64,000 nucleotides of DNA, taken from a virus. Taxonomy: Duplodnaviria > Caudoviricetes. This document shows positions 4,122 to 63,549 of this stretch, piece by piece (the first letter of the stretch is position 1; every line of letters starts with the position of its first letter). The stretch lies in IMG/VR virus record IMGVR_UViG_3300032116_000002, one strand, 5' to 3'. Both the position numbers and the translations under genes were made by a program. The notes beneath the pieces were generated by a model, which saw only the letters and a program-made list of their open reading frames with translations, made no database searches and had not been told where the DNA came from.

Positions 4122-5134
4122 TGAAACGCATACTTGCGTTACTGTTGATGACATTGGCAGGTGCAGTTTATTCTGCCAATGTCTATGGTCCCATCGAAGT
4201 TACTGGGGTTGGTAAAACTGAGGAAGAAGCTAAAAACAATGGTTTCAAAAAGGCAGTGGAATACGCACTAGGTGCGGCTATTGTAAGTGAGGTTGAAGTA
4301 CAGAATCGTAGTGAAGTAGCCAAAAATTCTGTACTTAAACATAGTGCAGGTTATGTTGACAAATTCAAAATTGTCGAAGTAATGGAAGAACGTAACGGAA
4401 AAGTTTCTGTTACTATGAATGTTTGGGTTAAGCCTAGTATCCTTAACGATTATGTTATGCACAAAAGCAAAGATAATAAAAGGATAGAAGGTGAGACTGC
4501 AGGTGCAAGAATATCGACCTATATCAATGAACGTGAACAAGGTGATACTTTTGTGAATAGTGTTTTGCGTGATTTCCCACACAAAGCATTTAACGTAAAG
4601 CAAGGCAACTTTGAGGTACGATCAAATGACAGTAGGCAGATGGCTATCTTTATTCCTTATACTATATCTTTTAATAGCAAATTTTTATCTGCGCTATCTG
4701 GGGCTTTGAAACAAGTACAGGATAAGGAATGTAATTTTCTTTGCGATGACACACCAAGCTTTAGTATTAGCTATGCAAAGCAGAATGAAATTATAGGTTC
4801 AAGATCCACTTATTATTTCAATGATGCAGTAAGACCGCATGGTGTATGGGCTAAGCTAACGGGTATCAGTGGCTTGCATGAACCACTAAATTCTGTTAAG
4901 GTTAAAACTGATTTTGCAGATTTTAATGGTAACCCAATTTTAACTTACTGCACTGATTTCCAAAGCTTACCAGTTTACAAGCGTGGTAAAAGCTATGGTA
5001 TCGACGGTGGGTCTTGGAAAGAAAACGTAACATTGCAAATTCCTGTTACAGAATCTATTAAAAGTACATTGTCAAATGTTGACCAAATTAAAGTTTCAGT
5101 GGTAAGCCCTCATGAGTGTAAAAACAATTATTGA
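4121..5134 (+). CDS. exported protein, LPP20/FlgT-N-like N-terminus
   Basis: Signal peptide; VTGVGKTEEEAKNNGFKKAVE pattern. Confidence 0.6.
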   Translation: MKRILALLLMTLAGAVYSANVYGPIEVTGVGKTEEEAKNNGFKKAVEYALGAAIVSEVEVQNRSEVAKNSVLKHSAGYVDKFKIVEVMEERNGKVSVTMNVWVKPSILNDYVMHKSKDNKRIEGETAGARISTYINEREQGDTFVNSVLRDFPHKAFNVKQGNFEVRSNDSRQMAIFIPYTISFNSKFLSALSGALKQVQDKECNFLCDDTPSFSISYAKQNEIIGSRSTYYFNDAVRPHGVWAKLTGISGLHEPLNSVKVKTDFADFNGNPILTYCTDFQSLPVYKRGKSYGIDGGSWKENVTLQIPVTESIKSTLSNVDQIKVSVVSPHECKNNY

Positions 5135-5159
5135 GGTTATTAAACAAGATATATACTAA

Positions 5160-51984: not shown

Positions 51985-52061
51985 TGGTCGGAGTACGAGG
52001 ATTCGAACCTCGGACCCCCTGCTCCCAAAGCAGGTGCACTACCAGGCTGTGCTATACTCCG
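51985..52061 (-). tRNA. tRNA-Pro(UGG)
   Basis: Cloverleaf, CCA encoded. Confidence 0.95.
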
Positions 52062-52065
52062 AAAC

Positions 52066-52139
52066 TGGTTGCGGGACCCGGAATCGAACCAGGAACTGGA
52101 GCTTATGAGACTCCCGAGATGCCGTTTCTCTATCCCGCG
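52066..52139 (-). tRNA. tRNA-Met(CAU), initiator-like
   Basis: C1:A72 mismatch and A11:U24, but lacks the three G-C anticodon-stem pairs. Confidence 0.85.
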
Positions 52140-52146
52140 TCTGTTA

Positions 52147-52419
52147 TTAACCTGTTCTATGAATGATGTGAAAACCAAACTGAGTTTGCACAGGCTCACT
52201 TACTTGTCCTATTTCTAATGCGTAAGTAGCATCTTCAAAGGGCTTAACCATTTGACCTTTACCAAACAAACCTAAATCACCACCATTCTGTCCACTAGGA
52301 CATCTTGAAACTTGTTTTGCCATAGTTGCGAAATCAGCAGCTTGGCTTAGTAGTTGACTCTTTATCATGTTTGCTTGTTCTAAATTTTCTACTAAAATAT
52401 GACTTGCACGAACTTGCAT
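52147..52419 (-). CDS. ppiC: parvulin peptidyl-prolyl isomerase
   Basis: ASHILV, SRCPSGQNGGDLG, GQMVKPFE, TQFGFHII. Confidence 0.95.
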   Translation of the reverse strand: MQVRASHILVENLEQANMIKSQLLSQAADFATMAKQVSRCPSGQNGGDLGLFGKGQMVKPFEDATYALEIGQVSEPVQTQFGFHIIHRTG

Positions 52420-52439
52420 AATTTATCCTTGTATGTTAG

Positions 52440-52638
52440 TGTAAGGCTACTCGCTCCCACAAGCCCCTTACTGAGTTGTTGCCCTGTCCACTACATTTCT
52501 CTTTTGGTAAGGTGTAGTTCCAACCTACGACTTTTCTGGCACCCATGTAAGCGGGTTCTGAGGCAGATCGTATGCGCCCTGGCTTTCTGGTTTGCCAACC
52601 ACCCCCATTTCATAACGCAGATGGGACTACGGGATACT
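52440..52638 (-). ncRNA. structured ncRNA A (about 200 nt)
   Basis: GC-rich, no credible ORF, multiple hairpins; 17-nt identity with RNA B. Confidence 0.7.
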
Positions 52639-52716
52639 TGGAGCAACGGGTGAGATTCGAACTCACGGCTTTAGGGTTTTGCAGACCCTTGCATTGGGCC
52701 TCTCTGCCACCGTTGC
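52639..52716 (-). tRNA. tRNA-Cys(GCA)
   Basis: Cloverleaf, CCA encoded. Confidence 0.93.
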
Positions 52717-52717
52717 A

Positions 52718-52912
52718 TTATTTCAATAGTTCAATCAACCTTTGCTTTGATTCTTCTGTCAAGAATAATTCACACTTTACCTGATCGTGTGGGAACTTTG
52801 CAACGTCCCAATGTGTATAGATTCTTAACACTTGAAAATTACTTGGGGTATCACAATTCTGTAACTCTGCATATGTTTTAAATCCATCATTCTCATTCAA
52901 CAAAATTTTCAT
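52718..52912 (-). CDS. hypothetical protein
   Basis: ATG 52912 after AAGGA. Confidence 0.6.
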   Translation of the reverse strand: MKILLNENDGFKTYAELQNCDTPSNFQVLRIYTHWDVAKFPHDQVKCELFLTEESKQRLIELLK

Positions 52913-52930
52913 TGTAATATCCTTATTGTT

Positions 52931-53004
52931 TGGCGTCCCGGCAGGGATTTGAACCCCGACCAACGGTTTTGGAGACCGGTATGCTGCCGTTACACTACCG
53001 AGAC
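52931..53004 (-). tRNA. tRNA-Trp(CCA)
   Basis: Cloverleaf, CCA end. Confidence 0.92.
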
Positions 53005-53012
53005 ATTATACT

Positions 53013-53216
53013 TTACTTGTACTTACTAAGATACTCTTTTGGGTTTATTAAACCCTGTTCGATTTCATTTAATGCAGTTACTACAGGTTTATCTTTGGTG
53101 ACTATTTTAGGGGCATGTCCTGAACGTAATTCACGCACCCTAGCACTAGCGATTAAAACTAAATCATATAAGCCACCTGCTTTTTTTGCTGCTACTTCTG
53201 ATGTTCTACCTTTCAT
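53013..53216 (-). CDS. rpoZ: RNA polymerase omega subunit
   Basis: YDLVLIASARVREL..GHAPKI..DKPVVTALNEI. Confidence 0.85.
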   Translation of the reverse strand: MKGRTSEVAAKKAGGLYDLVLIASARVRELRSGHAPKIVTKDKPVVTALNEIEQGLINPKEYLSKYK

Positions 53217-53235
53217 ATTACTTCCTTATGATGTT

Positions 53236-53310
53236 TGGTAGGGGATAACGGGGTCGAACCATTGACCTTCGCCTTGTAAGGGCGCTGCTCTACCACTGAG
53301 CTAATCCCCT
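53236..53310 (-). tRNA. tRNA-Val(UAC)
   Basis: Cloverleaf. Confidence 0.93.
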
Positions 53311-53375
53311 AGTATTTTTTATTAGGTACGAAATTCTCTATCGGTTGATAGATATTTAAGTGAAGTGATTAAAAA

Positions 53376-53558
53376 TTAATCTGAGACTTTTTCAATTCTT
53401 ACGGACAAATCTTCTTGGGTCAAGAATTTGCTTGGTAGAGTATTGTTATCTCTTTCAGCAATGATTCCGTCAGTGACAGACTTAGGATTATATCTTTCCT
53501 GACCTGTTAAGTCCATAGACTTGTAAAAAATTTCGTTAATGTAGACATTGATTTTCAT
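53376..53558 (-). CDS. hypothetical protein
   Basis: ATG 53558 after GATAAATA. Confidence 0.55.
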   Translation of the reverse strand: MKINVYINEIFYKSMDLTGQERYNPKSVTDGIIAERDNNTLPSKFLTQEDLSVRIEKVSD

Positions 53559-53585
53559 ATAACTATTTATCACTTTACATTAAAA

Positions 53586-53668
53586 TGGTGCGCATAGAGG
53601 GACTCGAACCCCCACCCGTTGAGACCAGAACCTAAATCTGGCGCGTCTACCAATTTCGCCATATGCGC
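53586..53668 (-). tRNA. tRNA-Leu(UAG)
   Basis: Type II cloverleaf. Confidence 0.94.
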
Positions 53669-53676
53669 ATAATACT

Positions 53677-53760
53677 TGGTGCCCAGAGCCGGACTCGAAC
53701 CGGCACGCCTTGCAGCGAGGGATTTTAAGTCCCTTGTGTCTACCATTTCACCACCTGGGC
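53677..53760 (-). tRNA. tRNA-Leu(UAA)
   Basis: Type II cloverleaf. Confidence 0.94.
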
Positions 53761-53769
53761 ATTCTAACT

Positions 53770-53844
53770 TGGAGCGGGTGACAGGGATCGAACCTGCGAC
53801 GAACAGCTTGGAAGGCTGACACTCTACCACTGAGTTACACCCGC
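53770..53844 (-). tRNA. tRNA-Gly(UCC)
   Basis: Cloverleaf. Confidence 0.95.
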
Positions 53845-53853
53845 ATTACATCT

Positions 53854-53930
53854 TGGTGCCTCCGAAGGGACTCGAACCCCTAACCAACGGATTATGAGTC
53901 CGCTGCTCTGACCGATTGAGCTACAGAGGC
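53854..53930 (-). tRNA. tRNA(CAU), elongator Met or Ile2
   Basis: Cloverleaf; identity not resolvable by eye. Confidence 0.88.
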
Positions 53931-54000
53931 AATTTAATTTGTTTTTAAAGAACGATTTCAATATGTGTATTATACTGCTAAAAACTTTATTTGTCAACAG

Positions 54001-54225
54001 TTAAACAAAATCATCTGACCCAAAATACTCTGCTACTTTTTCTCTTGCTTCTTTTCTATTCAGTGCAGGAATCTTTACTGTAGCAATATTATTTTTTATT
54101 TTGATGTTAAAAGGAACTATACCATTTGGTGTCCAGTTATCTTCAACACGAACCTTAACAGTAAATTCTTTAAGGTTCATTAATCTTTCAATTACTTGTT
54201 GCGTTAAATCTGATGGACTTTGCAT
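54001..54225 (-). CDS. hypothetical protein
   Basis: ATG 54225 just 3' of tRNA-Thr. Confidence 0.6.
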   Translation of the reverse strand: MQSPSDLTQQVIERLMNLKEFTVKVRVEDNWTPNGIVPFNIKIKNNIATVKIPALNRKEAREKVAEYFGSDDFV

Positions 54226-54237
54226 AGTTAAGTTAAA

Positions 54238-54312
54238 TGGTGCTGGCAGTAGGAATCGAACCCACAACCTACTGATTACAAATCAGTTGCTCTACCGTTG
54301 AGCCATGCCAGC
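54238..54312 (-). tRNA. tRNA-Thr(UGU)
   Basis: Cloverleaf. Confidence 0.95.
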
Positions 54313-54322
54313 GTATTCTGTA

Positions 54323-54484
54323 TTACTTAGTCCTACTTGCAATCGCACGTTGAATTTTCATACGATGCTTTGGTCTACATGTTTCAAGCATTTTGGTAAG
54401 TTGTTCTACATTAAGTGGACCTAATTTAGTCTTACCTGTTTTTGTTTTCATTGGATCACGTTTAAAATCTTTTTTTGCACTCAT
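54323..54484 (-). CDS. 53-aa basic protein (not in ORF track)
   Basis: GAGGA RBS; MSAKKDFKRDPMKTK... Confidence 0.6.
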   Translation of the reverse strand: MSAKKDFKRDPMKTKTGKTKLGPLNVEQLTKMLETCRPKHRMKIQRAIASRTK

Positions 54485-54504
54485 ATATCCTCACATAAAA
54501 AACT

Positions 54505-54580
54505 TGGCTCCGGTGGTAGGGCACGATCCTACGACATACGGATTAACAGTCCGCCGTTCTACCAACTGAACTACACCGGA
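54505..54580 (-). tRNA. tRNA-Asn(GUU), non-canonical T-loop
   Basis: Cloverleaf; T-loop AUCGUGC. Confidence 0.88.
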
Positions 54581-54609
54581 ATTGACTCTATTCTAACAGT
54601 TAAAATTCT

Positions 54610-54703
54610 TGGCGAAGAGTATTGGATTCGAACCAATGATCCGGCTTTTGACCAGATGCCTTCTTAGCAGGAAGGTGCCTTCGACCAACTCGGCCAACTC
54701 TCC
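54610..54703 (-). tRNA. tRNA-Ser(GCU)
   Basis: Type II cloverleaf. Confidence 0.93.
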
Positions 54704-54710
54704 TTAAAAC

Positions 54711-54953
54711 TTAATACTTCTCTGTAATCTTTTCTATTCTATCAAAACTTTGTTTCAATGTCAATTCATATCTAACCTGATTAAGGTTAATTGCATAAAT
54801 TATATAGACACCATAAACAAACAATGCACCTAATATAGTCCAGCCAATTTGCTCACTATCAAGTGTTAGTAAAAAAGCAATTAGCAAAGGAGCAACTGTT
54901 GCTAATACAACCATTATTAATGTTCTTTTTAGTGCAATTAATTTTTCATTCAT
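54711..54953 (-). CDS. small membrane protein
   Basis: Two TMs; behind early promoter. Confidence 0.65.
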   Translation of the reverse strand: MNEKLIALKRTLIMVVLATVAPLLIAFLLTLDSEQIGWTILGALFVYGVYIIYAINLNQVRYELTLKQSFDRIEKITEKY

Positions 54954-54964
54954 AACAATTCCTT

Positions 54965-54993
54965 ATTGTATATCAAACAGGATTTATTGTCAA
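54965..54993 (-). promoter_or_regulatory. early promoter
   Basis: TTGACAATAAATC, 17-bp spacer, TACAAT. Confidence 0.8.
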
Positions 54994-55289
54994 CTGTTTT
55001 CTTTGTTGTCATCTTTGTAAAACTTTTCCTGTTTATGTTTCTTTTCTTGCAACGTTTCTTCACCGAAAAACTTTCGAGGATTACCGCACATATAACACTT
55101 TGGATCTCCGCAATTAAAAATCTTTGTTTTGTGGCTACGATGTGGTTGCGTCATAAACGGCATTTTGCTCATAGCAGAACTAAGCTTGTGATATCCATAA
55201 TTCTTAGCTAATTGTAACTGTCTTTTTATCTTTGTTGCTTTTTGATGGAGTCTCTCACTGTGTCTAATTTTATCTGATTCATCTGACAT
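54990..55289 (-). CDS. basic protein with CGDPKCYMCGNPRK motif
   Basis: GGAGG RBS. Confidence 0.7.
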   Translation of the reverse strand: MSDESDKIRHSERLHQKATKIKRQLQLAKNYGYHKLSSAMSKMPFMTQPHRSHKTKIFNCGDPKCYMCGNPRKFFGEETLQEKKHKQEKFYKDDNKENS

Positions 55290-55306
55290 ACACCCTCCTT
55301 AACATT

Positions 55307-55397
55307 TGGCGGAAGCGGACGGAGTCGAACCCTCAAGGGCCTATTAAGCCTCAACTGTTTTCAAGACAGGTACCATCGCCAATTGGTTTGCGCTTCC
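55307..55397 (-). tRNA. tRNA-Ser(UGA), atypical D-arm
   Basis: Type II cloverleaf; overlapped by the HNH ORF. Confidence 0.85.
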
Positions 55398-55836
55398 TTT
55401 TGTTTCTTGATTTATAAGTTGGTAATTGGGAATCACAATTACTACAAACAAATCTTAAATTTTCTATCCTATTATCATTGTTTATGCCGTTTATGTGATC
55501 TAGTATTAATGTCATTGGCTTACCTTGCCACATTGGTTCTATACCACAAATACCACAAACATAATCAATTAATTTTTTTGCTTTTATCCTTGCTTTAACA
55601 CTATGTCTAGAATAACTAGAATTTTCACAAAACACAACATCATCTGGGTATTTTTGATCGTAATGTTCGGGTCTGCCTGTTTTTAATCCTAAGTTCCATG
55701 GTTTAGCACCTTTTTTTCTACCTGCATTTGGTGAATGAAAATGCTTTATTTTGTTAGGATTATTAACACACGACATTTCATGTGCTTTTAGTGAACCTTT
55801 GTTTTTAATTTCTCTTTGACAATATGTGCAATTCAT
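55351..55836 (-). CDS. HNH homing-type endonuclease
   Basis: CGICG..LDHINGINNDNRIENLRFVCSNCD. Confidence 0.88.
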   Translation of the reverse strand: MNCTYCQREIKNKGSLKAHEMSCVNNPNKIKHFHSPNAGRKKGAKPWNLGLKTGRPEHYDQKYPDDVVFCENSSYSRHSVKARIKAKKLIDYVCGICGIEPMWQGKPMTLILDHINGINNDNRIENLRFVCSNCDSQLPTYKSRNKRKRKPIGDGTCLENS

Positions 55837-55894
55837 AATAGTATCCTCTACTATTATTTATGCTTTAACGCAAAAAATCGTCAAATAGCTGCGT

Positions 55895-56134
55895 TTAGCC
55901 ATTCTTCCTTTTTATTATCATTGCTACATATGTTCCTGTAAATGCACCTAATAATGCAGGTATCAACATCAAATTATCGTTAACAAAGCTTATTAGAGCT
56001 ATACTATATATTAACATAACGATTGATGCAAGTGTACTGGCAACCAAAGGCTTATCTTCGGCAATAGCTTTTATATAATAGGTATTCACTATATCGGTAA
56101 AAAATACAGCAAAAAATGTGATGATATATGACAT
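55895..56134 (-). CDS. small membrane protein
   Basis: Three TMs. Confidence 0.6.
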   Translation of the reverse strand: MSYIITFFAVFFTDIVNTYYIKAIAEDKPLVASTLASIVMLIYSIALISFVNDNLMLIPALLGAFTGTYVAMIIKRKNG

Positions 56135-56138
56135 TGGG

Positions 56139-56210
56139 TTAGTCCTGCAGGAATCGAACCTGCATCATTGCAATCGGAATGCAGTATCTTATCCATTAGA
56201 CGAAGGACTA
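56139..56210 (-). tRNA. tRNA-Arg(CCG)
   Basis: Cloverleaf; 3' end ACCCA, so CCA not encoded in register. Confidence 0.88.
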
Positions 56211-56214
56211 AAAT

Positions 56215-56288
56215 TGGAGCGGGTAGCGAGAATCGAACTCGCAAATAATCCTTGGCAAGGATTCAGGTTACCTTTACATCATACCCGC
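56215..56288 (-). tRNA. tRNA-Gly(GCC)
   Basis: Cloverleaf. Confidence 0.92.
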
Positions 56289-56296
56289 TTGAAACC

Positions 56297-58207
56297 TTAA
56301 TTAGTTTCTTTTACTTCTGCGTCTACTACATTAGGATCACCTTCTGCTTTTTGTGCGTTTGGATCACCTTCTGGCATTTCTTTATTGCGCTTTTCTGCTT
56401 CATATGTAATAGTTTTGCGATATAGTTCACCGAGTTCTTCAGTGGCTTTGTCCATATCTTCTTTACTATCACCTTTAGCAACTTCTTTGTATTTACTAAT
56501 ACTATCAAGCATTGAAGTTTTTTCTTCTTCAGGAATATAGCCTTCAAGATTTTCAATTTGCTTTTCAAGCATACCAATTTGATTATCCAAACTGTTACGT
56601 GCTTGTACAAGTTCTACAACCTTTTTATCTTCCTCAGCATTTAACTCAGCGTCTTTGACCATTTGTTCAATTTCTTGTTCAGATAATCCAGAACTTGCTT
56701 TGATAGTAATTTGCTTTTCTTTGTTAGTTTTCTTGTCAAGAGCCTTAACTGATAGTATACCATTTGCGTCAATGTCAAATGTTACTTCAATCTGTGGCAT
56801 GCCTCTTGGTGCAGGATCAATGCCCTCTAGTGTAAACTCACCTAGTCCTTTGTTACCTACAACAATTTCACGTTCACCTTGGAAAACTTTAATTGTAACA
56901 GCAGGCTGATTATCGTCTGCTGTACTAAAAGTTTGGCTTGCCTTTGTAGGAATCGTTGTATTCTTTTTGATAAGTTTAGTCATAACACCACCTAGTGTTT
57001 CAATACCTAAACTTAAAGGTGTAACATCCAACAACAGAACATCAGTGCGATCACCACCTAAGACTTGACCTTGAAGTGCAGCACCAACTGCAACTGCTTC
57101 ATCAGGGTTTACATCTTTACGAGGTGCCTTACCAAAAAACTTTTCTACTGCTTCTTGTACTCTTGGCATGCGAGTCATACCACCAACAAGAATCACTTCA
57201 TCAATATCACTGATACTTACACCAGCGTCTTTGATTGCAACTTCACAAGGCTTAATGCTACGTTGAATTAACTCTTCAACCAAACCTTCTAATTTAGCAC
57301 GTGTGATTTTAACGTTAAGATGCTTTGGTCCTGTTGCATCAGCAGTGATATAAGGTAAGCTTACATCAGTCTGTGTTGAACTTGATAGTTCAATCTTAGC
57401 ACGTTCTGCTGCATCTTTAAGTCTTTGTAATGCTAATACATCTTTAGTTAAATCTACACCACTTTCTTTTTTGAACTCATCAACTAGATGATCCATAATT
57501 CTTTGGTCAAAATCTTCACCACCTAAAAATGTATCACCGTTAGTTGATAATACTTCAAATTGTTTTTCACCTTCGACATTAGCAATATCAATAATACTAA
57601 TGTCAAATGTTCCACCACCTAAGTCATAGACAGCAATTTTTCGGTCCTTCTTGTCCTGTTTGTCTACACCGTAAGCTAATGCTGCCGCTGTAGGTTCGTT
57701 AATAATACGCAATACTTCCAGACCCGCAATGCGTCCTGCGTCTTTAGTTGCTTGTCTTTGACTATCATTAAAATATGCTGGAACTGTAATAACAGCCTTT
57801 GTGACTTCTTCACCTAAGAAATCTTCTGCTGTCTTTTTCATTTTACGCAAAACTTCAGCACTGATTTGTGGAGGTGCTAGTTTCTTGTCATTCACTTCTA
57901 CCCAAGCATCACCGTTATCTGCTTCTACAATCTTATATGGCATTAGATCGATATCTTTTTGGACTGCTTGTTCTTTGAATTTGCGCCCAATCAATCTCTT
58001 TGATGCATACACCGTGTTCTTTGGATTAGTAACAGCTTGACGCTTAGCTGGCGCGCCAACAACGATTTCACCGTCCTGCATGTAGGCGATAATGCTTGGG
58101 GTAGTTCTTGCACCCTCGCTGTTCTCTAATACTTTTGGATTTTTGCCATCTATGATAGCAACGCATGAATTGGTAGTACCTAGGTCAATACCTATAATCT
58201 TTGACAT
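56297..58207 (-). CDS. dnaK: Hsp70 chaperone DnaK
   Basis: [31 protein letters not shown]. Confidence 0.98.
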
Positions 58208-58274
58208 GTTATTTCTCCTTTAATAAGCAAGATTACTTCAGTGCCCGATAGGCGCAACTGAGATATGTATTTAT
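58208..58274 (-). promoter_or_regulatory. dnaK leader resembling hsp20 leader
   Basis: ATAAATAC; TCAGT-T-GC-G-CC-TATC-GG-GC-ACTGA hairpin; GCTTATTAAAGGAGA. Confidence 0.6.
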
Positions 58275-58305
58275 ACATTATTTTTACTAAAAATACAAAT
58301 ATATT

Positions 58306-58380
58306 TGGTAGCAGGAGAGGGATTCGAACCCCCGATAGCTTCCGTATGAAGGAAGTGCATTACCTCTTTGCTATCCTGCC
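58306..58380 (-). tRNA. tRNA(CAU), Ile2 or Met
   Basis: Cloverleaf, loop UUCAUAC. Confidence 0.82.
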
Positions 58381-58430
58381 ATATACTTTCGTACATTTAT
58401 TTGTTACAAGTAACAAATATATAACTTTAT

Positions 58431-58628
58431 ATGGAAATAGAATTTATTTCATTATACAAACTCGGAGTAGGATGCATCCTAGTGAGGTATGAAGATATTA
58501 TAACAATGGAGTACACTCCACTAGGATATACTCGTATTGAATTTGGGTACGGCGAACATCTTATTGTTGAAGAAGATATAATTTGTATAATGAAAAAAAT
58601 TCAAGCAGCTAAAACGCTAAGTGAATAA
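58431..58628 (+). CDS. hypothetical protein
   Basis: 65 aa ORF filling a tRNA spacer. Confidence 0.45.
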   Translation: MEIEFISLYKLGVGCILVRYEDIITMEYTPLGYTRIEFGYGEHLIVEEDIICIMKKIQAAKTLSE

Positions 58629-58704
58629 TGGTGCCGCCTGTTGGTTACGCTCCAACCTATCCGGCTCTTCAAACCGGCGCTTTCACTAGATTAGCTTAAG
58701 CGGC
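58629..58704 (-). tRNA. tRNA-Phe(GAA), non-canonical T-loop
   Basis: Stems intact; T-loop AGCGUAA. Confidence 0.82.
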
Positions 58705-58706
58705 AT

Positions 58707-58783
58707 TGGGGTGAAGGACGGGACTCGAACCCGCAACCACTGGATCCACAATCCAGGGCTCTACCAATTGAGCTACCAACACC
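58707..58783 (-). tRNA. tRNA-His(GUG)
   Basis: G-1:C73; two U-U mismatches in acceptor stem. Confidence 0.88.
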
Positions 58784-58788
58784 ATTGA

Positions 58789-58968
58789 TTATGTTGCACG
58801 CCATTCTACACGACCATACTGGTCTATATGTGCAATACTTTGCATACGTTTGACTTCAACATATTCACGTTTCTCAGTAATAATTTCACCACCACGTTGT
58901 ACTAATTCATTTACTTTAATCTTTGCTACAGAATTAATAGGTTCAAATTTTTTAAACTTGATCTCCAT
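58789..58968 (-). CDS. 59-aa hypothetical protein (not in ORF track)
   Basis: GGAGG RBS; MEIKFKKFEP... Confidence 0.6.
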   Translation of the reverse strand: MEIKFKKFEPINSVAKIKVNELVQRGGEIITEKREYVEVKRMQSIAHIDQYGRVEWRAT

Positions 58969-58990
58969 TTTACACCTCCGATTTATAAAT

Positions 58991-59092
58991 ATGTAGTGTA
59001 GCGGTTAATCTAGCACACAAGGATGCCAACGTAAAGAGTTTTCTAGATTTCCTCTATACCTAGTCGAAGGCCAAATTGTCGCTACACTACAT
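58991..59092 (-). ncRNA. 102-nt stem-closed RNA element
   Basis: Perfect 13-bp terminal inverted repeat ATGTAGTGTAGCG/CGCTACACTACAT. Confidence 0.45.
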
Positions 59093-59665
59093 CACAGGTC
59101 CATTACCATTTTTAAAACCAACAGTACCGCCTTCTTCTACAATACGTTTGATAACTTCTTCAAACAATATAGGGCGATAATCTGTTTGTTCTACACAAAC
59201 ACAATGATATCTTGGGTCGATTTTATATTCACCGAAAATTTCTGCTTTAACTCTCTGATAATGCAGATGTCCATGAATATTAGTACCGAACCTTGCGAGA
59301 CTATCTGTATGAATAGGAATATGACTTAATATCATTCCATTCATTACATGATAGCCACGAATATCTCTAAAGTATTCAGTGTATTCTTCTAATCTAAAAA
59401 TGTCGTGGTTACCCTTAATAAGAACCTTATCTCCATTAAGCCTTGCTAGAGTTTTAAGTGCTTTACGATTAATCACAACATCACCGAGATGGTAAACTTT
59501 ATCGTTTGGACGAACGGTTTCGTTCCAACGTTTTACCATTTCTTCATCCATCTCATCTGGGTCATCCCAGGGTCTGAGTTTAGTTCCATCATCACGAAGG
59601 AACTTACAAACGCCAGCATGACCAAAATGCGTATCAGAAACCAAAAAGTTTGCTGGCATAGTCAC
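59087..59665 (-). CDS. calcineurin-like phosphoesterase
   Basis: SDTHFGH, HLGD, GNHD, SHIP, HGHLH. Confidence 0.9.
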   Translation of the reverse strand: MTMPANFLVSDTHFGHAGVCKFLRDDGTKLRPWDDPDEMDEEMVKRWNETVRPNDKVYHLGDVVINRKALKTLARLNGDKVLIKGNHDIFRLEEYTEYFRDIRGYHVMNGMILSHIPIHTDSLARFGTNIHGHLHYQRVKAEIFGEYKIDPRYHCVCVEQTDYRPILFEEVIKRIVEEGGTVGFKNGNGPVM

Positions 59666-59710
59666 TCCTTAAATAAAAAAATTATAACACAAAAACAATT
59701 TACTGTCAAT

Positions 59711-59787
59711 TGGCACCCCAGGAAGGATTCGAACCTCCGACTCCTGCGTTCGTAGCACAGTACTCTAGTCCACTGAGTTACTGGGGC
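59711..59787 (-). tRNA. tRNA-Arg(ACG)
   Basis: Cloverleaf. Confidence 0.94.
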
Positions 59788-59796
59788 ATATATTGA

Positions 59797-59872
59797 TGGT
59801 GGGGGCTATGGGAATCGAACCCATTTAATCTACTATGTCATAGTAGCGACTAGCCATTCATACCTAGCCCCT
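59797..59872 (-). tRNA. atypical tRNA-Val(GAC)-like gene
   Basis: Perfect T-arm and ACCA, anticodon stem intact; D-stem largely unpaired; A1:C72. Confidence 0.55.
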
Positions 59873-59946
59873 CGCCGACCCGGGGTTTCCCTCCTTGCAG
59901 TCGGTGAAGTATTTATTGCCCAACACCATTAAAAATAAATACAAAA

Positions 59947-60648
59947 ATGCATATACATATATTTGGTCACAGCATTTGTGCCAGAGCAGGTTGGAAACAT
60001 GACAAACCCGAACCTGATCTATTTGTTGATAGATTAATTAAAAAATATAATATACCTAAATCAAACTATCACGCTGTTAATCAAGGCAGTGAAGAAAGAA
60101 TATTATATTTTTTAAAAAAAGTTAAAAAGATTGACTTGGCGATAATCTTCCATGGCACTCCGCAACATTTCTTTTGTCCTGCGTGGTCTAGTGATTTTCA
60201 TTTAGTAGACCAAGACAAATATTGGGAAAATGATTACCCCAGAGATTTGTATTACATGCCTGAAATACTAAAAGATAAACCAAAAGAACCTAATCCTGAT
60301 ATAATATTAGATAAGAAAAATTATCAAAAATCATATGAAAATTTTGTAAAACACTTTTATACACCTGAATTAAATCGCAATAGACACTATGGCGCATTAA
60401 TTCAAATTGATCAATATTTAAATCACAAAAAAATACATGCAATTCATTGTGTACTAAAAAACACATTACCAACTTGGTTCGAGTTTAGTAATGGTATAGT
60501 AGACAATGAACTTGCAGAGTTGCAAAAACAAAACAGTAAGTTCTATACCGGACCTCAAAACAGCGGCAATTTAATCAGTGAAGAAGGTAATATCTACATT
60601 GCTAACAAACTTACTGATTACATAGAACAATTAACTGGCTGGGGATGA
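59947..60648 (+). CDS. hypothetical protein (SGNH-like fold possible)
   Basis: IFGHSIC start, QGSEERI, N..SEEGN end. Confidence 0.65.
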   Translation: MHIHIFGHSICARAGWKHDKPEPDLFVDRLIKKYNIPKSNYHAVNQGSEERILYFLKKVKKIDLAIIFHGTPQHFFCPAWSSDFHLVDQDKYWENDYPRDLYYMPEILKDKPKEPNPDIILDKKNYQKSYENFVKHFYTPELNRNRHYGALIQIDQYLNHKKIHAIHCVLKNTLPTWFEFSNGIVDNELAELQKQNSKFYTGPQNSGNLISEEGNIYIANKLTDYIEQLTGWG

Positions 60649-60711
60649 TGGACTCGAACCACCGAATGTCGGAATCAAAATCCGATGCCTTACCAACTTG
60701 GCGAATCCCCA
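60636..60711 (-). tRNA. tRNA-Gln(UUG)
   Basis: Cloverleaf. Confidence 0.94.
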
Positions 60712-60712
60712 A

Positions 60713-60862
60713 TTAACTTGGTATTACTTTTGGTATATACGGTACATTTCTAGGACCATGTCTTTGCTCAAATAACATACGTGCTTCCTGTAAATCTTTA
60801 GCATAGACACGATCTTTAATATCACCTTGCGGTGTTCTTACTGTAGTTTCATACATTGGCAT
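60713..60862 (-). CDS. 49-aa hypothetical protein (not in ORF track)
   Basis: AAGGAG RBS; MPMYETTVRTPQG... Confidence 0.65.
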   Translation of the reverse strand: MPMYETTVRTPQGDIKDRVYAKDLQEARMLFEQRHGPRNVPYIPKVIPS

Positions 60863-60880
60863 AACAAACTCCTTAGAGGT

Positions 60881-60908
60881 AAGAAAAGGTAGCTAAGCTA
60901 CCCTTTTC
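60881..60908 (-). terminator. intrinsic terminator 3' of pqqA
   Basis: GGTAGC-TTA-GCTACC followed by TTTTCTT. Confidence 0.8.
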
Positions 60909-60932
60909 ATTATGTTGATTGAAAATCACTGA

Positions 60933-61004
60933 TTAGCGATTTGCAATGTACATAGTGATTTCAAAACCAAAACGCATATCAGTTGCACTAGGTGTTGTCC
61001 ACAT
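60933..61004 (-). CDS. pqqA: PQQ cofactor precursor peptide PqqA (23 aa, not in ORF track)
   Basis: MWTTPSATDMRFGFEITMYIANR with E-x3-Y core; AAAGGAG RBS. Confidence 0.93.
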   Translation of the reverse strand: MWTTPSATDMRFGFEITMYIANR

Positions 61005-61024
61005 GTTACTCTCCTTTGAATTTA

Positions 61025-61083
61025 AAATACATGTACTGCACATGTATTTAAGAGATTGTACAACACAAAAATGGTACTGTCTA
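61025..61083 (-). promoter_or_regulatory. pqqA promoter and 5' hairpin
   Basis: TAGACA (61083-78), 17-bp spacer, TACAAT (61060-55); AAATACATGT/ACATGTATTT 10-bp hairpin. Confidence 0.7.
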
Positions 61084-61125
61084 TACGCATAGTATTGAAC
61101 GATAGCTAGTGAAAATCATTAAACT

Positions 61126-61217
61126 TACCATATAGAAACACATTCCTGGATTGTCGTAAAACCCTCCATAGCCCCGAGCGCCATTATTTTTATATTCGAA
61201 TGTGTTTTTATATGGTA
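61126..61217 (-). repeat. 20-bp inverted repeat overlapping tRNA-Lys 3' end
   Basis: TACCATATAGAAACACATTC / GAATGTGTTTTTATATGGTA, one mismatch. Confidence 0.7.
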
Positions 61218-61288
61218 GGGGCACAGAGATTCGAACTCTGGACACACGGATTAAAAGTCCGCTGCTCTACCTACTGAGCTATACCCCC
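61213..61288 (-). tRNA. tRNA-Lys(UUU)
   Basis: Cloverleaf. Confidence 0.95.
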
Positions 61289-61315
61289 ATCATCTTTCGA
61301 GGTTTGTCGCTTTCC

Positions 61316-61483
61316 TTATTCATCTTTATCACCTTTATTTCTCATGCTTCTTGTTTTAGCACTTCTTTCTGAGGATTTGACTGCCTCACGAATGAAATGT
61401 CTTTCACGTTCCTTATTAAAACTAAGGATCGCAATAGCCTTTTCTGCTTTCTTTATTTTTACTGCCTTTGGATCGTAACCCAT
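61316..61483 (-). CDS. 55-aa basic protein (not in ORF track)
   Basis: AGGAG RBS; MGYDPKAVKIKK... Confidence 0.6.
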   Translation of the reverse strand: MGYDPKAVKIKKAEKAIAILSFNKERERHFIREAVKSSERSAKTRSMRNKGDKDE

Positions 61484-61583
61484 ATTAATCTCCTATTTAA
61501 AATTTCTATCAATTAATGCTAACAACCAAATAACTCCGATAATAACTGCCATTGCCCCATTGTAGTTCTCCTTATAGTTATAT

Positions 61584-61667
61584 TGGTGGGGTGTACTGGG
61601 ATCGAACCAGTCATGTCAAAGACGGCGGATTTACAGTCCACTGCATCACCATTGATGCTTCCACCCC
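61584..61667 (-). tRNA. tRNA-Tyr(GUA)
   Basis: Type II cloverleaf. Confidence 0.92.
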
Positions 61668-61668
61668 A

Positions 61669-61875
61669 TTTAATGCTCTGACAGACCTCGGAGGTAATTA
61701 TACCGCATCAAGCACCGAGTAGTCTCAGTACCATCACACACGGCCTCCACCCTCTCCACGACAGGTCCCGTTCTCGCATTGCCAGCGCACTTTCGGTTTA
61801 AAGTGTACCACCCGTAGTTGTCATACTACTTCTCATCGTGCGGGTCACACTATCTGCTGACTAAGCAGAACGTTC
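61669..61875 (-). ncRNA. structured ncRNA C (about 205 nt) filling the tRNA-Asp/tRNA-Tyr spacer
   Basis: GC-rich, at least 5 hairpins; shares a two-hairpin module with RNAs A and B. Confidence 0.65.
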
Positions 61876-61952
61876 TGGCGACACCAAGGGGGTTCGAACC
61901 CCTGACCTCCGCCGTGACAGGGCGGCATTCTAACCAGCTGAACTATGGTGCC
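61876..61952 (-). tRNA. tRNA-Asp(GUC)
   Basis: Cloverleaf. Confidence 0.95.
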
Positions 61953-62103
61953 ATTGTTCTACACTCTGCTACTAACTTACTTTTTACAATTGTTAATCTT
62001 TTATTCCAAACATACTCTGCATCTCTACATTCTTTTTCTGTGGCATACTTTGAGTATTGGGTATAGTTGTCAGGAAACTGTAACCAAAATACTAAAATCC
62101 AAG

Positions 62104-62568
62104 TCATCTCACACCCAAATAATGTTTGTTTACATAGCTTTGTATTGCTTGATGACTTACATTACTGATATGCACGCCTGGAGCAACATTACGCCTACCT
62201 GAACTATCAAAGTAATTTCTTGTTTCTATACCATAGACACCATAGTTAACCTGTGCTGTATGATATGCACCAATTGTAACAATAGAGTAGGGCTTATGTT
62301 TTACGTTTTTTAAAACATGTTTAATGCTTTCTGCACCCTTACTATACCCATATAACTGATACTGTTTATTATTTCTATTAATAAACTTTACTGCTAAATG
62401 TGCTTGATTCCAACTATATGTCATTGCACATGCATTCTGCTTTTTTGCATATTGATTAAAGGCACGACTATCAAATAAATCATTGATACCTTTGAAACCA
62501 ATAACGAACTTGTCACAGGCAAAACTGTTCTGTGTTACAAGTAATAAAATAAAAAATAATGTTCTCAT
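62104..62568 (-). CDS. exported small alpha/beta-hydrolase-like protein
   Basis: Signal peptide; GYSKG nucleophile-elbow motif. Confidence 0.65.
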   Translation of the reverse strand: MRTLFFILLLVTQNSFACDKFVIGFKGINDLFDSRAFNQYAKKQNACAMTYSWNQAHLAVKFINRNNKQYQLYGYSKGAESIKHVLKNVKHKPYSIVTIGAYHTAQVNYGVYGIETRNYFDSSGRRNVAPGVHISNVSHQAIQSYVNKHYLGVR

Positions 62569-62584
62569 ATTAGTTTTGTAGCCT

Positions 62585-63118
62585 ATACTATATGCCTAAC
62601 TCAACAGCTTTACACGTGTTTACTGTTTATTGTTTCGGTTACATAACGCCTGCGCCAGCCTCTGTGCTTACAGGCTACAAAATTAATATGCTTAGGCCAC
62701 GCTTTTCCACGGTCGCCCCCAAGCTGGAGTTGTTGCCCTGTCCGAACACTAAAGGACCTTTGCCGCGTAGTGTCCACGCTGCTATGTTGTCTGAAACACC
62801 GGAGACACCACATCGAAATGCAGAGTCTATGTTTCGCTAAAGGTGCCATAGCCACCTGGACTTTATCGTATTACCAAACGCTACTTTCAGGAAAGTAGTA
62901 ACCGGAATCTTGCTTCTTTGATTCGGCGAGCTGTCCTACTTCAAGCAGGCTCACACTGGTCGCCCTGAGGTGAAGCACCTCAGTTACTCTAGATTAATAT
63001 TAATGCTAACAAGGACAGGCCTATTACATGATACCGAAGGCATTACTGTATCAAACCCTTGCTAAACTCTTTTCAGAGACAGAACGCACATTTTCTGTTT
63101 TGTTTTTAATCTTCATTT
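62585..63118 (-). ncRNA. large structured ncRNA B (about 540 nt), GOLLD/ROOL-class candidate
   Basis: Own early promoter; nested long-range helices and many hairpins; no credible long ORF. Confidence 0.72.
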
Positions 63119-63124
63119 GCCGCT

Positions 63125-63153
63125 AGTATAACAGCAAATCGATTTATTGTCAA
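63125..63153 (-). promoter_or_regulatory. early promoter driving ncRNA B
   Basis: TTGACAATAAATC, 17-bp spacer, TATACT. Confidence 0.85.
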
Positions 63154-63157
63154 ACTT

Positions 63158-63234
63158 TGGTGCCTGCTCTTGGAATCGAACCAAGCACCCCCGCGTTATC
63201 AACACGGTGCTCTAACCGAATGAGCTAAGCAGGC
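63158..63234 (-). tRNA. tRNA-Ile(GAU)
   Basis: Cloverleaf. Confidence 0.95.
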
Positions 63235-63238
63235 AAAC

Positions 63239-63314
63239 TGGCACACCCAACCGGATTCGAACCGGTGTATTCACCGTGAAAGGGTGATGTCCTAGGCCTC
63301 TAGACGATGGGTGC
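63239..63314 (-). tRNA. tRNA-Glu(UUC)
   Basis: Cloverleaf. Confidence 0.95.
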
Positions 63315-63386
63315 GTAAAACTGTTAAAGAACTAAAAATAATTCAGACATTTTATCTCGTTTTGGATTTAATGTCAAGTTGTTGTT

Positions 63387-63462
63387 TGGTGGAGGTGACA
63401 GGGATCGAACCTGCGACCTACGGCTTGCAAAGCCGCCGCTCTCCCAACTGAGCTACACCCCC
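63387..63462 (-). tRNA. tRNA-Ala(UGC)
   Basis: Cloverleaf, G3:U70. Confidence 0.95.
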
Positions 63463-63472
63463 AAATTAAATC

Positions 63473-63549
63473 TGGCCTGACCAGAGGGATTCGAACCCCC
63501 GACTTACTGCTTAGAAGGCAGTTACTCTATCCAACTGAGTTATGGTCAG
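63473..63549 (-). tRNA. tRNA-Arg(UCU)
   Basis: Cloverleaf. Confidence 0.95.

What the first reader, a model, noticed from the sequence alone, without database searches (positions are those of the whole stretch)
52440..52638. RNA A looks like a minimal about 200-nt version of the 3' core of RNA B
Seen: beyond the shared 17-mer (52473-89 = 62727-43), both RNAs place a 6-bp helix of different sequence directly 5' of it (ACUACA/UGUAGU in A, ACACUA/UAGUGU in B). Both have AAAG(U)CCAGG leading into a hairpin followed by U(C/U)AG, and a GGGG tract after the 17-mer. A starts immediately after the CCA of tRNA-Cys and ends in a GUAAGG..GCU/AGCCUUAC hairpin just before the ppiC start. Inference: a naturally minimised core domain released by tRNA 3' processing, useful for defining the functional core of the larger RNA.
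Basis: partly seen in the sequence, partly recalled or inferred. Interest (0 to 1): 0.68.

Follow-up and report, generated by a model that had tools for sequence, protein, structure and literature searches.

The report
Four-pseudoknot phage RNA, two paralogues
RNA A is not a trimmed piece of a bigger RNA but a normal full-length copy of an uncatalogued, intricately knotted 200-letter RNA that large freshwater phages keep among their tRNA genes, often as a pair of diverged copies; what it does is not yet known.

Summary
The listed motifs are present and A and B are true homologues, but A is not a minimised core of a larger RNA. A (52438-52637, minus strand, about 200 nt) and the central 219 nt of 'RNA B' (62690-62908) are full-length paralogues: a model built from either subtype aligns the other end to end. 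Among 232 distinct members from uncultured phages, A-type RNAs have a median of 200 nt and B-type 188 nt. The rest of 'RNA B' is separate, shuffled cassettes. Covariation supports seven stems and four pseudoknots, one locking the 5' end onto the 3' hairpin loop. ppiC follows only 6 of 125 A-type copies, so A is not a ppiC leader. Two-copy loci always hold one A and one B, but the end-locking pairs covary within each copy and 9 of 14 complete genomes have one copy, so there is no support for heterodimers. No Rfam match; not GOLLD, RNase P or theta ribozyme. Release by tRNA processing is plausible, not shown; function is inferred only. The scan noted this family before (copy B; probably other phages too).

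The parts
52438..52637 (-). RNA A: full-length A-type member of the family (about 200 nt; last paired base 52441)
   Evidence: CM R1 182.6 bits; CM R2, built from B-type only, aligns it over all 193 positions at 38.5 bits, E 7.6e-12
52630..52634 (-). PK-c 5' strand (UCCCG); pairs with the loop of the terminal hairpin, (U)GGGA at 52455-52459
   Evidence: compensatory variants such as CCUCG/UGAGG, GCACU/AGUGC, CCCUGU/ACAGGG, ACC/GGU; own pairs score 10.98 against 9.20 +/- 0.25 swapped, 0 of 300 swaps as high
52604..52625 (-). P2 hairpin (52621-25/52604-08); B equivalent 62892-98/62881-87
   Evidence: 94.7% of cells paired, 4 of 5 pairs with two-sided change; 99.2% in B-type
52580..52603 (-). PK-a (GGU 52601-03 with ACC 52589-91 in the P3 loop) and P3 (52594-97/52580-83); B has CGU/ACG at 62878-80/62867-69
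   Evidence: PK-a 95.6% paired with GC/CG and UA/CG swaps; P3 89.9%. In the B alignment PK-a scored only 63% because of a register shift
52526..52579 (-). P4 (52576-79/52561-64), PK-b (P4 loop 52567-72 with 52526-31) and the short P5 (52552-55/52542-45); P5 spans 14 nt in A and 43 nt in B (62793-62835)
   Evidence: P4 97.8%, PK-b 86.3% with 6 of 6 pairs covarying, P5 98.3%; B-type P4 91.5%, PK-b 90.2%
52490..52525 (-).
   Evidence: PK-d own against swapped: A 11.58 vs 9.73, B 15.66 vs 12.19, 0 of 300 each; P6 register is less certain in A-type
52473..52489 (-). Conserved 17-mer: near-invariant GGAC followed by a 3-4 bp hairpin with an AAC(A/U) loop
   Evidence: variants GAGU/GCUC and GAGC/GCUC keep the stem; no variant at the second G and one distinct variant at the A in IMG/VR scans
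52441..52471 (-). P7 terminal hairpin with invariant G/RG internal loop and G-U pair; its loop is the PK-c partner
   Evidence: 96.8% paired, 6 of 10 pairs covary, 3 never vary
62690..62908 (-).
   Evidence: CM R2 197 bits; CM R1, built from A-type only, aligns it over all 206 positions at 45.2 bits, E 1.1e-13
52639..52716 (-). tRNA-Cys(GCA) with encoded CCA, directly upstream of A
52147..52430 (-). ppiC (parvulin-type rotamase, 52147-52419) with SD AAGGA at 52426-52430; a neighbour, not part of the element
   Evidence: Pfam PF00639 E 7e-23; follows 6 of 125 A-type copies

Best explanation
What it is (about 90% sure): a stand-alone structured non-coding RNA of about 200 nt, one of two paralogous subtypes in this phage, placed in the tRNA array the way a tRNA gene is. 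How it most likely works: it is co-transcribed with tRNA-Cys and ppiC. Host tRNA-maturation nucleases cut a few bases after the upstream CCA, and after the RNA where a tRNA follows, and so release it (inferred). It folds into a compact four-pseudoknot shape in which the first bases pair with the loop of the last hairpin (pairing shown by covariation), which would shield both ends and make it long-lived (inferred). It then acts in trans as a binding surface, through the invariant GGAC, AAC loop and P7 internal loop, as a decoy or modulator for a host protein or ribonucleoprotein of translation or RNA-based defence (inferred; the partner is not identified). A and B would be old duplicates kept side by side, each able to work alone.
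For: End-to-end cross-alignment of the two subtypes. 232 distinct members, 180-219 nt. Whole-structure covariation: A-type 92.8% paired, 33 of 43 pairs with two-sided change, 0 of 500 shuffles as high, slid controls 34-51%; B-type 87.0%, 23 of 45 pairs. End-locking PK-c. Neighbours vary freely: at least eight tRNA identities upstream, and tRNAs, other cassettes or 11 unrelated ORF clusters downstream. The spacer from CCA to the RNA is about 1-7 nt, like tRNA-tRNA spacers (median 6). Some B-type copies start just behind a sigma-70-like promoter. Short invariant motifs in an otherwise freely covarying scaffold point to a conserved contact surface. Pieces of A-like and B-like sequence occur in contigs of freshwater RNA libraries, one identical to A over 153 nt (weak evidence).
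Against: No partner, end or strand was observed: one search used contigs, which cannot show ends, strand or level and may contain DNA. Invariant bases fit a catalytic or ligand pocket equally well. In this genome no tRNA follows A, so its 3' end needs another cut or it stays on the ppiC mRNA. My pattern searches were anchored on the 17-mer, so its invariance is partly built in. Related sequences inflate the shuffle tests.
Confidence: 0.42

Rival explanations
1. One reading: A is a naturally minimised 3' core of a larger (about 540 nt) RNA B.
For: A is about 20 nt shorter than the B copy in this genome, and its P5 is 14 nt against 43 nt.
Against: B-type median is 188 nt, below A's 200. Only 9 of 44 B representatives have the long P5, and they sit among short ones in the tree. 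The 5' segment of 'RNA B' (63005-63118) lies 0-46 nt downstream of B cores in 14 loci and 97-963 nt upstream in others, and 62910-63004 is found next to only 7 of 125 B-core loci.
Confidence: 0.04
2. A ribozyme that helps mature the phage tRNA precursor, in cis like theta ribozymes or in trans like a small RNase P.
For: Compact multi-pseudoknot fold with invariant bases; 70 of 125 A-type copies lie within 12 nt of a tRNA 3' end; theta ribozymes occupy such a position (PMC10879173); none of 15 genomes has a canonical RNase P RNA.
Against: The spacer is not fixed (about 1-7 nt), the upstream tRNAs mostly encode CCA, and many copies have no adjacent tRNA. An HDV-like descriptor matches 4 of 107 members and not A (3 of 321 shuffles; no positive control). 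No Rfam ribozyme or RNase P match at E up to 10.
Confidence: 0.15
3. It forms RNA-only homo-oligomers like GOLLD and ROOL, with PK-c or another pseudoknot made between molecules.
For: Same genomic setting. In ROOL a kissing loop found by covariation proved to be intermolecular (PMC12286853). Covariation cannot tell intramolecular from homo-oligomeric pairs.
Against: A quarter to a third of their size, and no sequence or model similarity to the GOLLD copies in the same phages.
Confidence: 0.15
4. A free aptamer that soaks up a small signalling molecule or metal (an RNA sponge).
For: Riboswitch-like compactness and invariant junction bases without a fixed downstream gene.
Against: No riboswitch family match and no direct evidence for any ligand.
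Confidence: 0.1
5. A and B act as an obligate heterodimer.
For: All 23 two-copy loci hold one A and one B, never two of a kind (the loci are not all independent).
Against: PK-c complementarity is better within copies than across copies in 19 of 19 pairs (22.9 against 15.9). 9 of 14 genomes at least 90% complete have a single copy.
Confidence: 0.05
6. A is a cis-regulatory leader of ppiC.
For: The SD lies 10 nt after the last stem and no promoter-like or terminator-like site lies between them on the minus strand.
Against: ppiC follows 6 of 125 A-type copies and no B or D copy; only 27 of 232 members precede an SD plus ORF, in 11 unrelated clusters; ppiC also occurs in other loci.
Confidence: 0.04

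Closest known systems
GOLLD (RF02032) and ROOL (RF03087) RNAs
   Different: This RNA is about 200 nt and complete as such. No match to the GOLLD model. True GOLLD copies occur at separate sites in 7 of 29 phages that carry this family, and model R1 finds nothing significant in them.
T4 RNA C and RNA D (rnaC, rnaD)
   Same: Small phage RNAs of unknown function (PMC9697503) that, from my own knowledge, lie in the T4 tRNA cluster and are processed from the tRNA precursor.
   Different: No blastn match among 50,697 phage records for five family members. From my own knowledge the T4 RNAs are shorter and end in CCA; here ACCA follows the last stem in only 15 of 244.
Theta (HDV-like) ribozymes
   Same: Pseudoknotted RNA starting within a few bases of a phage tRNA 3' end (PMC10879173).
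   Different: Much larger, different helix order, variable spacer, encoded CCA upstream, no HDV-like descriptor match in A; freshwater rather than gut phages.
tmRNA and Y-RNA-like (YrlA) tRNA mimics
   Same: A string of H-type pseudoknots followed by GGAC and a short hairpin loosely recalls the tmRNA 3' region (resemblance from memory).
   Different: No Rfam match over A or B, no UUCRA T-loop, no CCA end, no acceptor stem formed from the two ends.

Membership tests
GOLLD | Match to the conserved 3' domain model RF02032 (cut-off 150 bits) | tested here: not met
   Best hit in the own genome 6.4 bits, outside A and B; real GOLLD copies score 198-216 bits at other sites
GOLLD | Length of several hundred nt with a variable 5' half | tested here: not met
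   Members are 180-219 nt and are bounded by tRNAs or promoters
GOLLD / ROOL | Location in phage tRNA arrays | tested here: met
   133 of 149 members have a tRNA within 1 kb
GOLLD / ROOL | RNA-only homo-oligomeric cage | not testable with these tools
   Needs mass photometry or cryo-EM
ROOL | Match to RF03087 | tested here: not met
   No hit over A or B at E up to 10
Theta / HDV-like ribozymes | Nested double pseudoknot with catalytic C in J4/2 | tested here: not met
   Descriptor matches 4 of 107 members, not A; 3 of 321 shuffles; no positive control was run. The covarying helices have another order
Theta / HDV-like ribozymes | 5' end flush with a tRNA 3' end | tested here: inconclusive
   Within a few nt in about half of the A-type copies, but the spacer is variable and absent in the rest
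Theta / HDV-like ribozymes | Self-cleavage in vitro | not testable with these tools
   Bench assay
RNase P RNA | Match to RF00010 with the P4 catalytic helix | tested here: not met
   0 of 15 genomes at E up to 0.01; the control rang in 11 of 14 known genomes
tmRNA / Y RNA / T4 RNA C-D type tRNA mimics | T-loop and encoded 3' CCA | tested here: not met
   The hairpin loop is AAC(A/U), not UUCRA; ACCA in 15 of 244; no Rfam hit
Cis-regulatory leader / riboswitch | Consistent position upstream of one gene class | tested here: not met
   27 of 232 precede an SD plus ORF, in 11 clusters

The most novel reading that the evidence does not exclude
The family is a new class of catalytic or ligand-binding RNA: a roughly 200-nt four-pseudoknot ribozyme (or aptamer) used by large freshwater phages to mature or protect their tRNA pool, with two specialised subtypes kept side by side.
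Probability: 0.2. Interest if true: 0.9.

Novelty: new variant of a known kind. Interest (0 to 1): 0.55.

Why it matters
Compact natural RNAs with this many covarying pseudoknots and invariant junction bases are rare, and those known are mostly ribozymes, riboswitches or ribosome-binding elements (own knowledge). This one is common in large freshwater phages, absent from Rfam, from the cultured-phage records searched and from the GTDB genomes scanned, and comes with hundreds of natural variants in three subtypes. At about 200 nt it can be transcribed, probed and solved directly. It offers a tractable way into the old question of what the non-tRNA RNAs in phage tRNA clusters do. The practical correction is that the unit to study is 190-220 nt, not a 540-nt RNA with A as its fragment.

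Tried and rejected
Rfam at gathering and E-value thresholds: nothing over A or B. Single-sequence folding is uninformative: z = 0.56 for A, as expected for a fold rich in pseudoknots. My first idea, that the 5' end pairs with GGACAGGG, failed (the variants break it) and was replaced by PK-c. No partner for the invariant GGAC could be shown. An encoded CCA tail was rejected. RNA C (61669-61875) as a third member: no hit with HMMs or with CM R1 with filters off. Cellular members: 10 pattern hits in GTDB contigs, none confirmed by the models. Cultured phages: no match for five queries. Literature: the 17-mer is not printed in any searchable paper and topic searches found no description. The 10,006 candidate viral RNAs of PMC10690425 could not be checked because no supplement is held, so the family may be an unnamed entry there. 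Sequencing runs held only small shares of the stretch and were contigs only, so ends, strand and level could not be read. Structure-aware MAFFT was unavailable, so some registers (PK-c, P6, PK-d, PK-a in B) were tested outside the alignment or are under-counted. The tree is unrooted, weakly supported for B (81/33), and its groups were defined by sequence, so no direction of descent is claimed.

Full report
Setting. The window lies in a 117.8-kb virus record (CheckV 33% complete). Positions 51985-63549 hold a minus-strand array of at least 24 tRNAs. Neither A nor B matches any of 4227 Rfam families, even at E up to 10 on short stretches.

Observation. The 17-mer occurs exactly twice in the window, 0.09 expected. 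Two details need correction. AAAG(U)CCAGG is found in only 3 of 107 representatives, and by structure its CCAGG is one base out of register between A and B. The 6-bp helix before the 17-mer is the second stem of a pseudoknot, not a simple hairpin.

The family. Pattern scans of IMG/VR and JGI contigs followed by profile searches gave 232 distinct full-length members: 125 A-type (186-210 nt, median 200), 89 B-type (180-219, median 188) and 18 of a third type. Many are close relatives; 107 remain below 85% identity. 133 of 149 checked have a tRNA within 1 kb. They lie on contigs up to 400 kb. No member was confirmed in GTDB genomes or in cultured-phage records.

A is not a fragment of B. A covariance model built only from A-type sequences aligns 62688-62913 over all 206 positions (45.2 bits, E 1e-13). 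A model built only from B-type sequences aligns A over all 193 positions (38.5 bits). B-type cores begin within 12 nt of a tRNA end in 22 of 89 cases and directly behind a promoter-like site in five. The extra length of this genome's B copy is one expanded helix, P5 (43 against 14 nt), present in 9 of 44 B representatives.

Structure. In order: 5' strand of PK-c; hairpin P2; a 3-nt strand pairing into the loop of P3 (PK-a); P4, whose loop pairs downstream of P5 (PK-b); P6, whose loop pairs with the strand just before the 17-mer (PK-d); the 17-mer with a 3-4 bp hairpin; terminal hairpin P7, whose loop takes the 5' end (PK-c). On 45 A-type sequences 92.8% of cells pair, 33 of 43 pairs change on both sides, no shuffle of 500 reaches this, and sliding the partners drops pairing to 34-51%. 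On 44 B-type sequences the figures are 87.0% and 23 of 45. PK-c and PK-d were also tested by swapping partners between sequences: 11.4 against 9.73 +/- 0.17 and 13.05 against 10.17 +/- 0.22, 0 of 300. PK-c is invariant within B and D types, so its covariation comes from A-type and cross-type comparison; PK-d showed no signal in D-type. Relatedness inflates such tests, and the structure was derived from these same sequences, but the slid controls and the many different pair types make the helices secure. Variants of the 17-mer keep its small stem; GGAC is nearly invariant, although the searches were anchored on it.

Not a ppiC leader. ppiC (PF00639) follows 6 of 125 A-type copies. Others are followed by tRNAs (27), other cassettes or unrelated ORFs; 27 of 232 members precede an SD plus ORF, in 11 clusters.

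Two subtypes. All 23 two-copy loci hold one A and one B (not independent). Of 14 genomes at least 90% complete, 5 carry two copies and 9 carry one. In 19 of 19 parsed pairs the end-locking contact fits better within a copy than across copies. So the pair looks like an old duplication with retention of both forms, not an obligate heterodimer.

Expression. Contigs of freshwater RNA libraries include a 153-nt piece identical to A (52470-52622), A-like pieces in two other runs, and a piece over 62757-62972 that crosses the 5' boundary of the B core. These are contigs: they show presence only, not strand, ends or level, and DNA may contribute.

Mechanism. Shown: a conserved stand-alone fold, its limits, free choice of neighbours, and a spacer after CCA of about 1-7 nt like that between tRNAs (median 6). 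Inferred: release by host tRNA-maturation nucleases (from established knowledge of polycistronic tRNA processing); stabilisation by PK-c and P7; action in trans through the invariant bases on a host protein or ribonucleoprotein (confidence 0.42 for the whole). Rivals: ribozyme 0.15, homo-oligomer 0.15, aptamer 0.10, heterodimer 0.05, ppiC leader 0.04, minimised core 0.04.

Comparison. It shares its setting with GOLLD and ROOL (PMC12286853) and with T4 RNA C and D (PMC9697503), and its position behind a tRNA recalls theta ribozymes (PMC10879173). It fails the membership tests for each: GOLLD copies occur separately in 7 of 29 of these phages and share nothing with model R1; no RNase P RNA match; no HDV-like topology in A; no CCA end. 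I found no published description, but could not check the candidate list of PMC10690425. Earlier notes of this scan describe the B copy as a 219-nt undescribed family and, probably, the same family in another phage.

Verdict. A real, undescribed four-pseudoknot RNA family. Interest 0.55.

Noticed in passing
window 63005-63118 (-): Separate conserved cassette that lies upstream or downstream of B-type cores in different phages (28 loci).
   Followed up: partly
window 62910-63004 (-) and 62585-62687 (-): Two further small non-coding cassettes flanking the B core, found in 7 and 16 loci.
   Followed up: partly
window 61669-61875 (-): RNA C is conserved in 32 loci but is not hit by this family's model; it looks like another uncatalogued family that may share a P2/P3-like module.
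   Followed up: partly
L166, L030, L217, L159 and others, directly after the member: A recurrent cassette beginning CCAUAUUGAAGCAC and closed by a complementary 3' strand often follows or precedes members; an unnamed hairpin-bounded RNA.
   Followed up: no
L483-L488 (G007, G008, G014, G022, G026, G028; also G009): GOLLD RNAs above the Rfam cut-off in 7 of 29 freshwater phages; the two printed (L483, L485) appear to carry a tRNA-like insert near their 5' side.
   Followed up: no
window 55311-55397 and 55351-55836 (-): A tRNA-Sec-like hit (44.6 bits, cut-off 47) overlapped by the 3' end of an HNH endonuclease ORF.
   Followed up: no
window 61587-61667, 58632-58704, 59800-59872 (-): tRNA genes found by Rfam but missed by ARAGORN.
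   Followed up: no
G009:C1:291720-291947 (L177 about 5112-5159): A divergent 228-nt second copy with an altered 17-mer region, scoring 53.7 bits with R2; possibly a fourth subtype.
   Followed up: no
L008, L024, L055, L091 and L086, L090, L102: Some A-type copies are followed by a conserved 53-aa ORF (7 loci) or a 144-aa membrane-like ORF (5 loci).
   Followed up: no
window 56297-58207 (-): A full-length phage-encoded DnaK inside the tRNA array, 65-67% identical to proteobacterial DnaK.
   Followed up: partly
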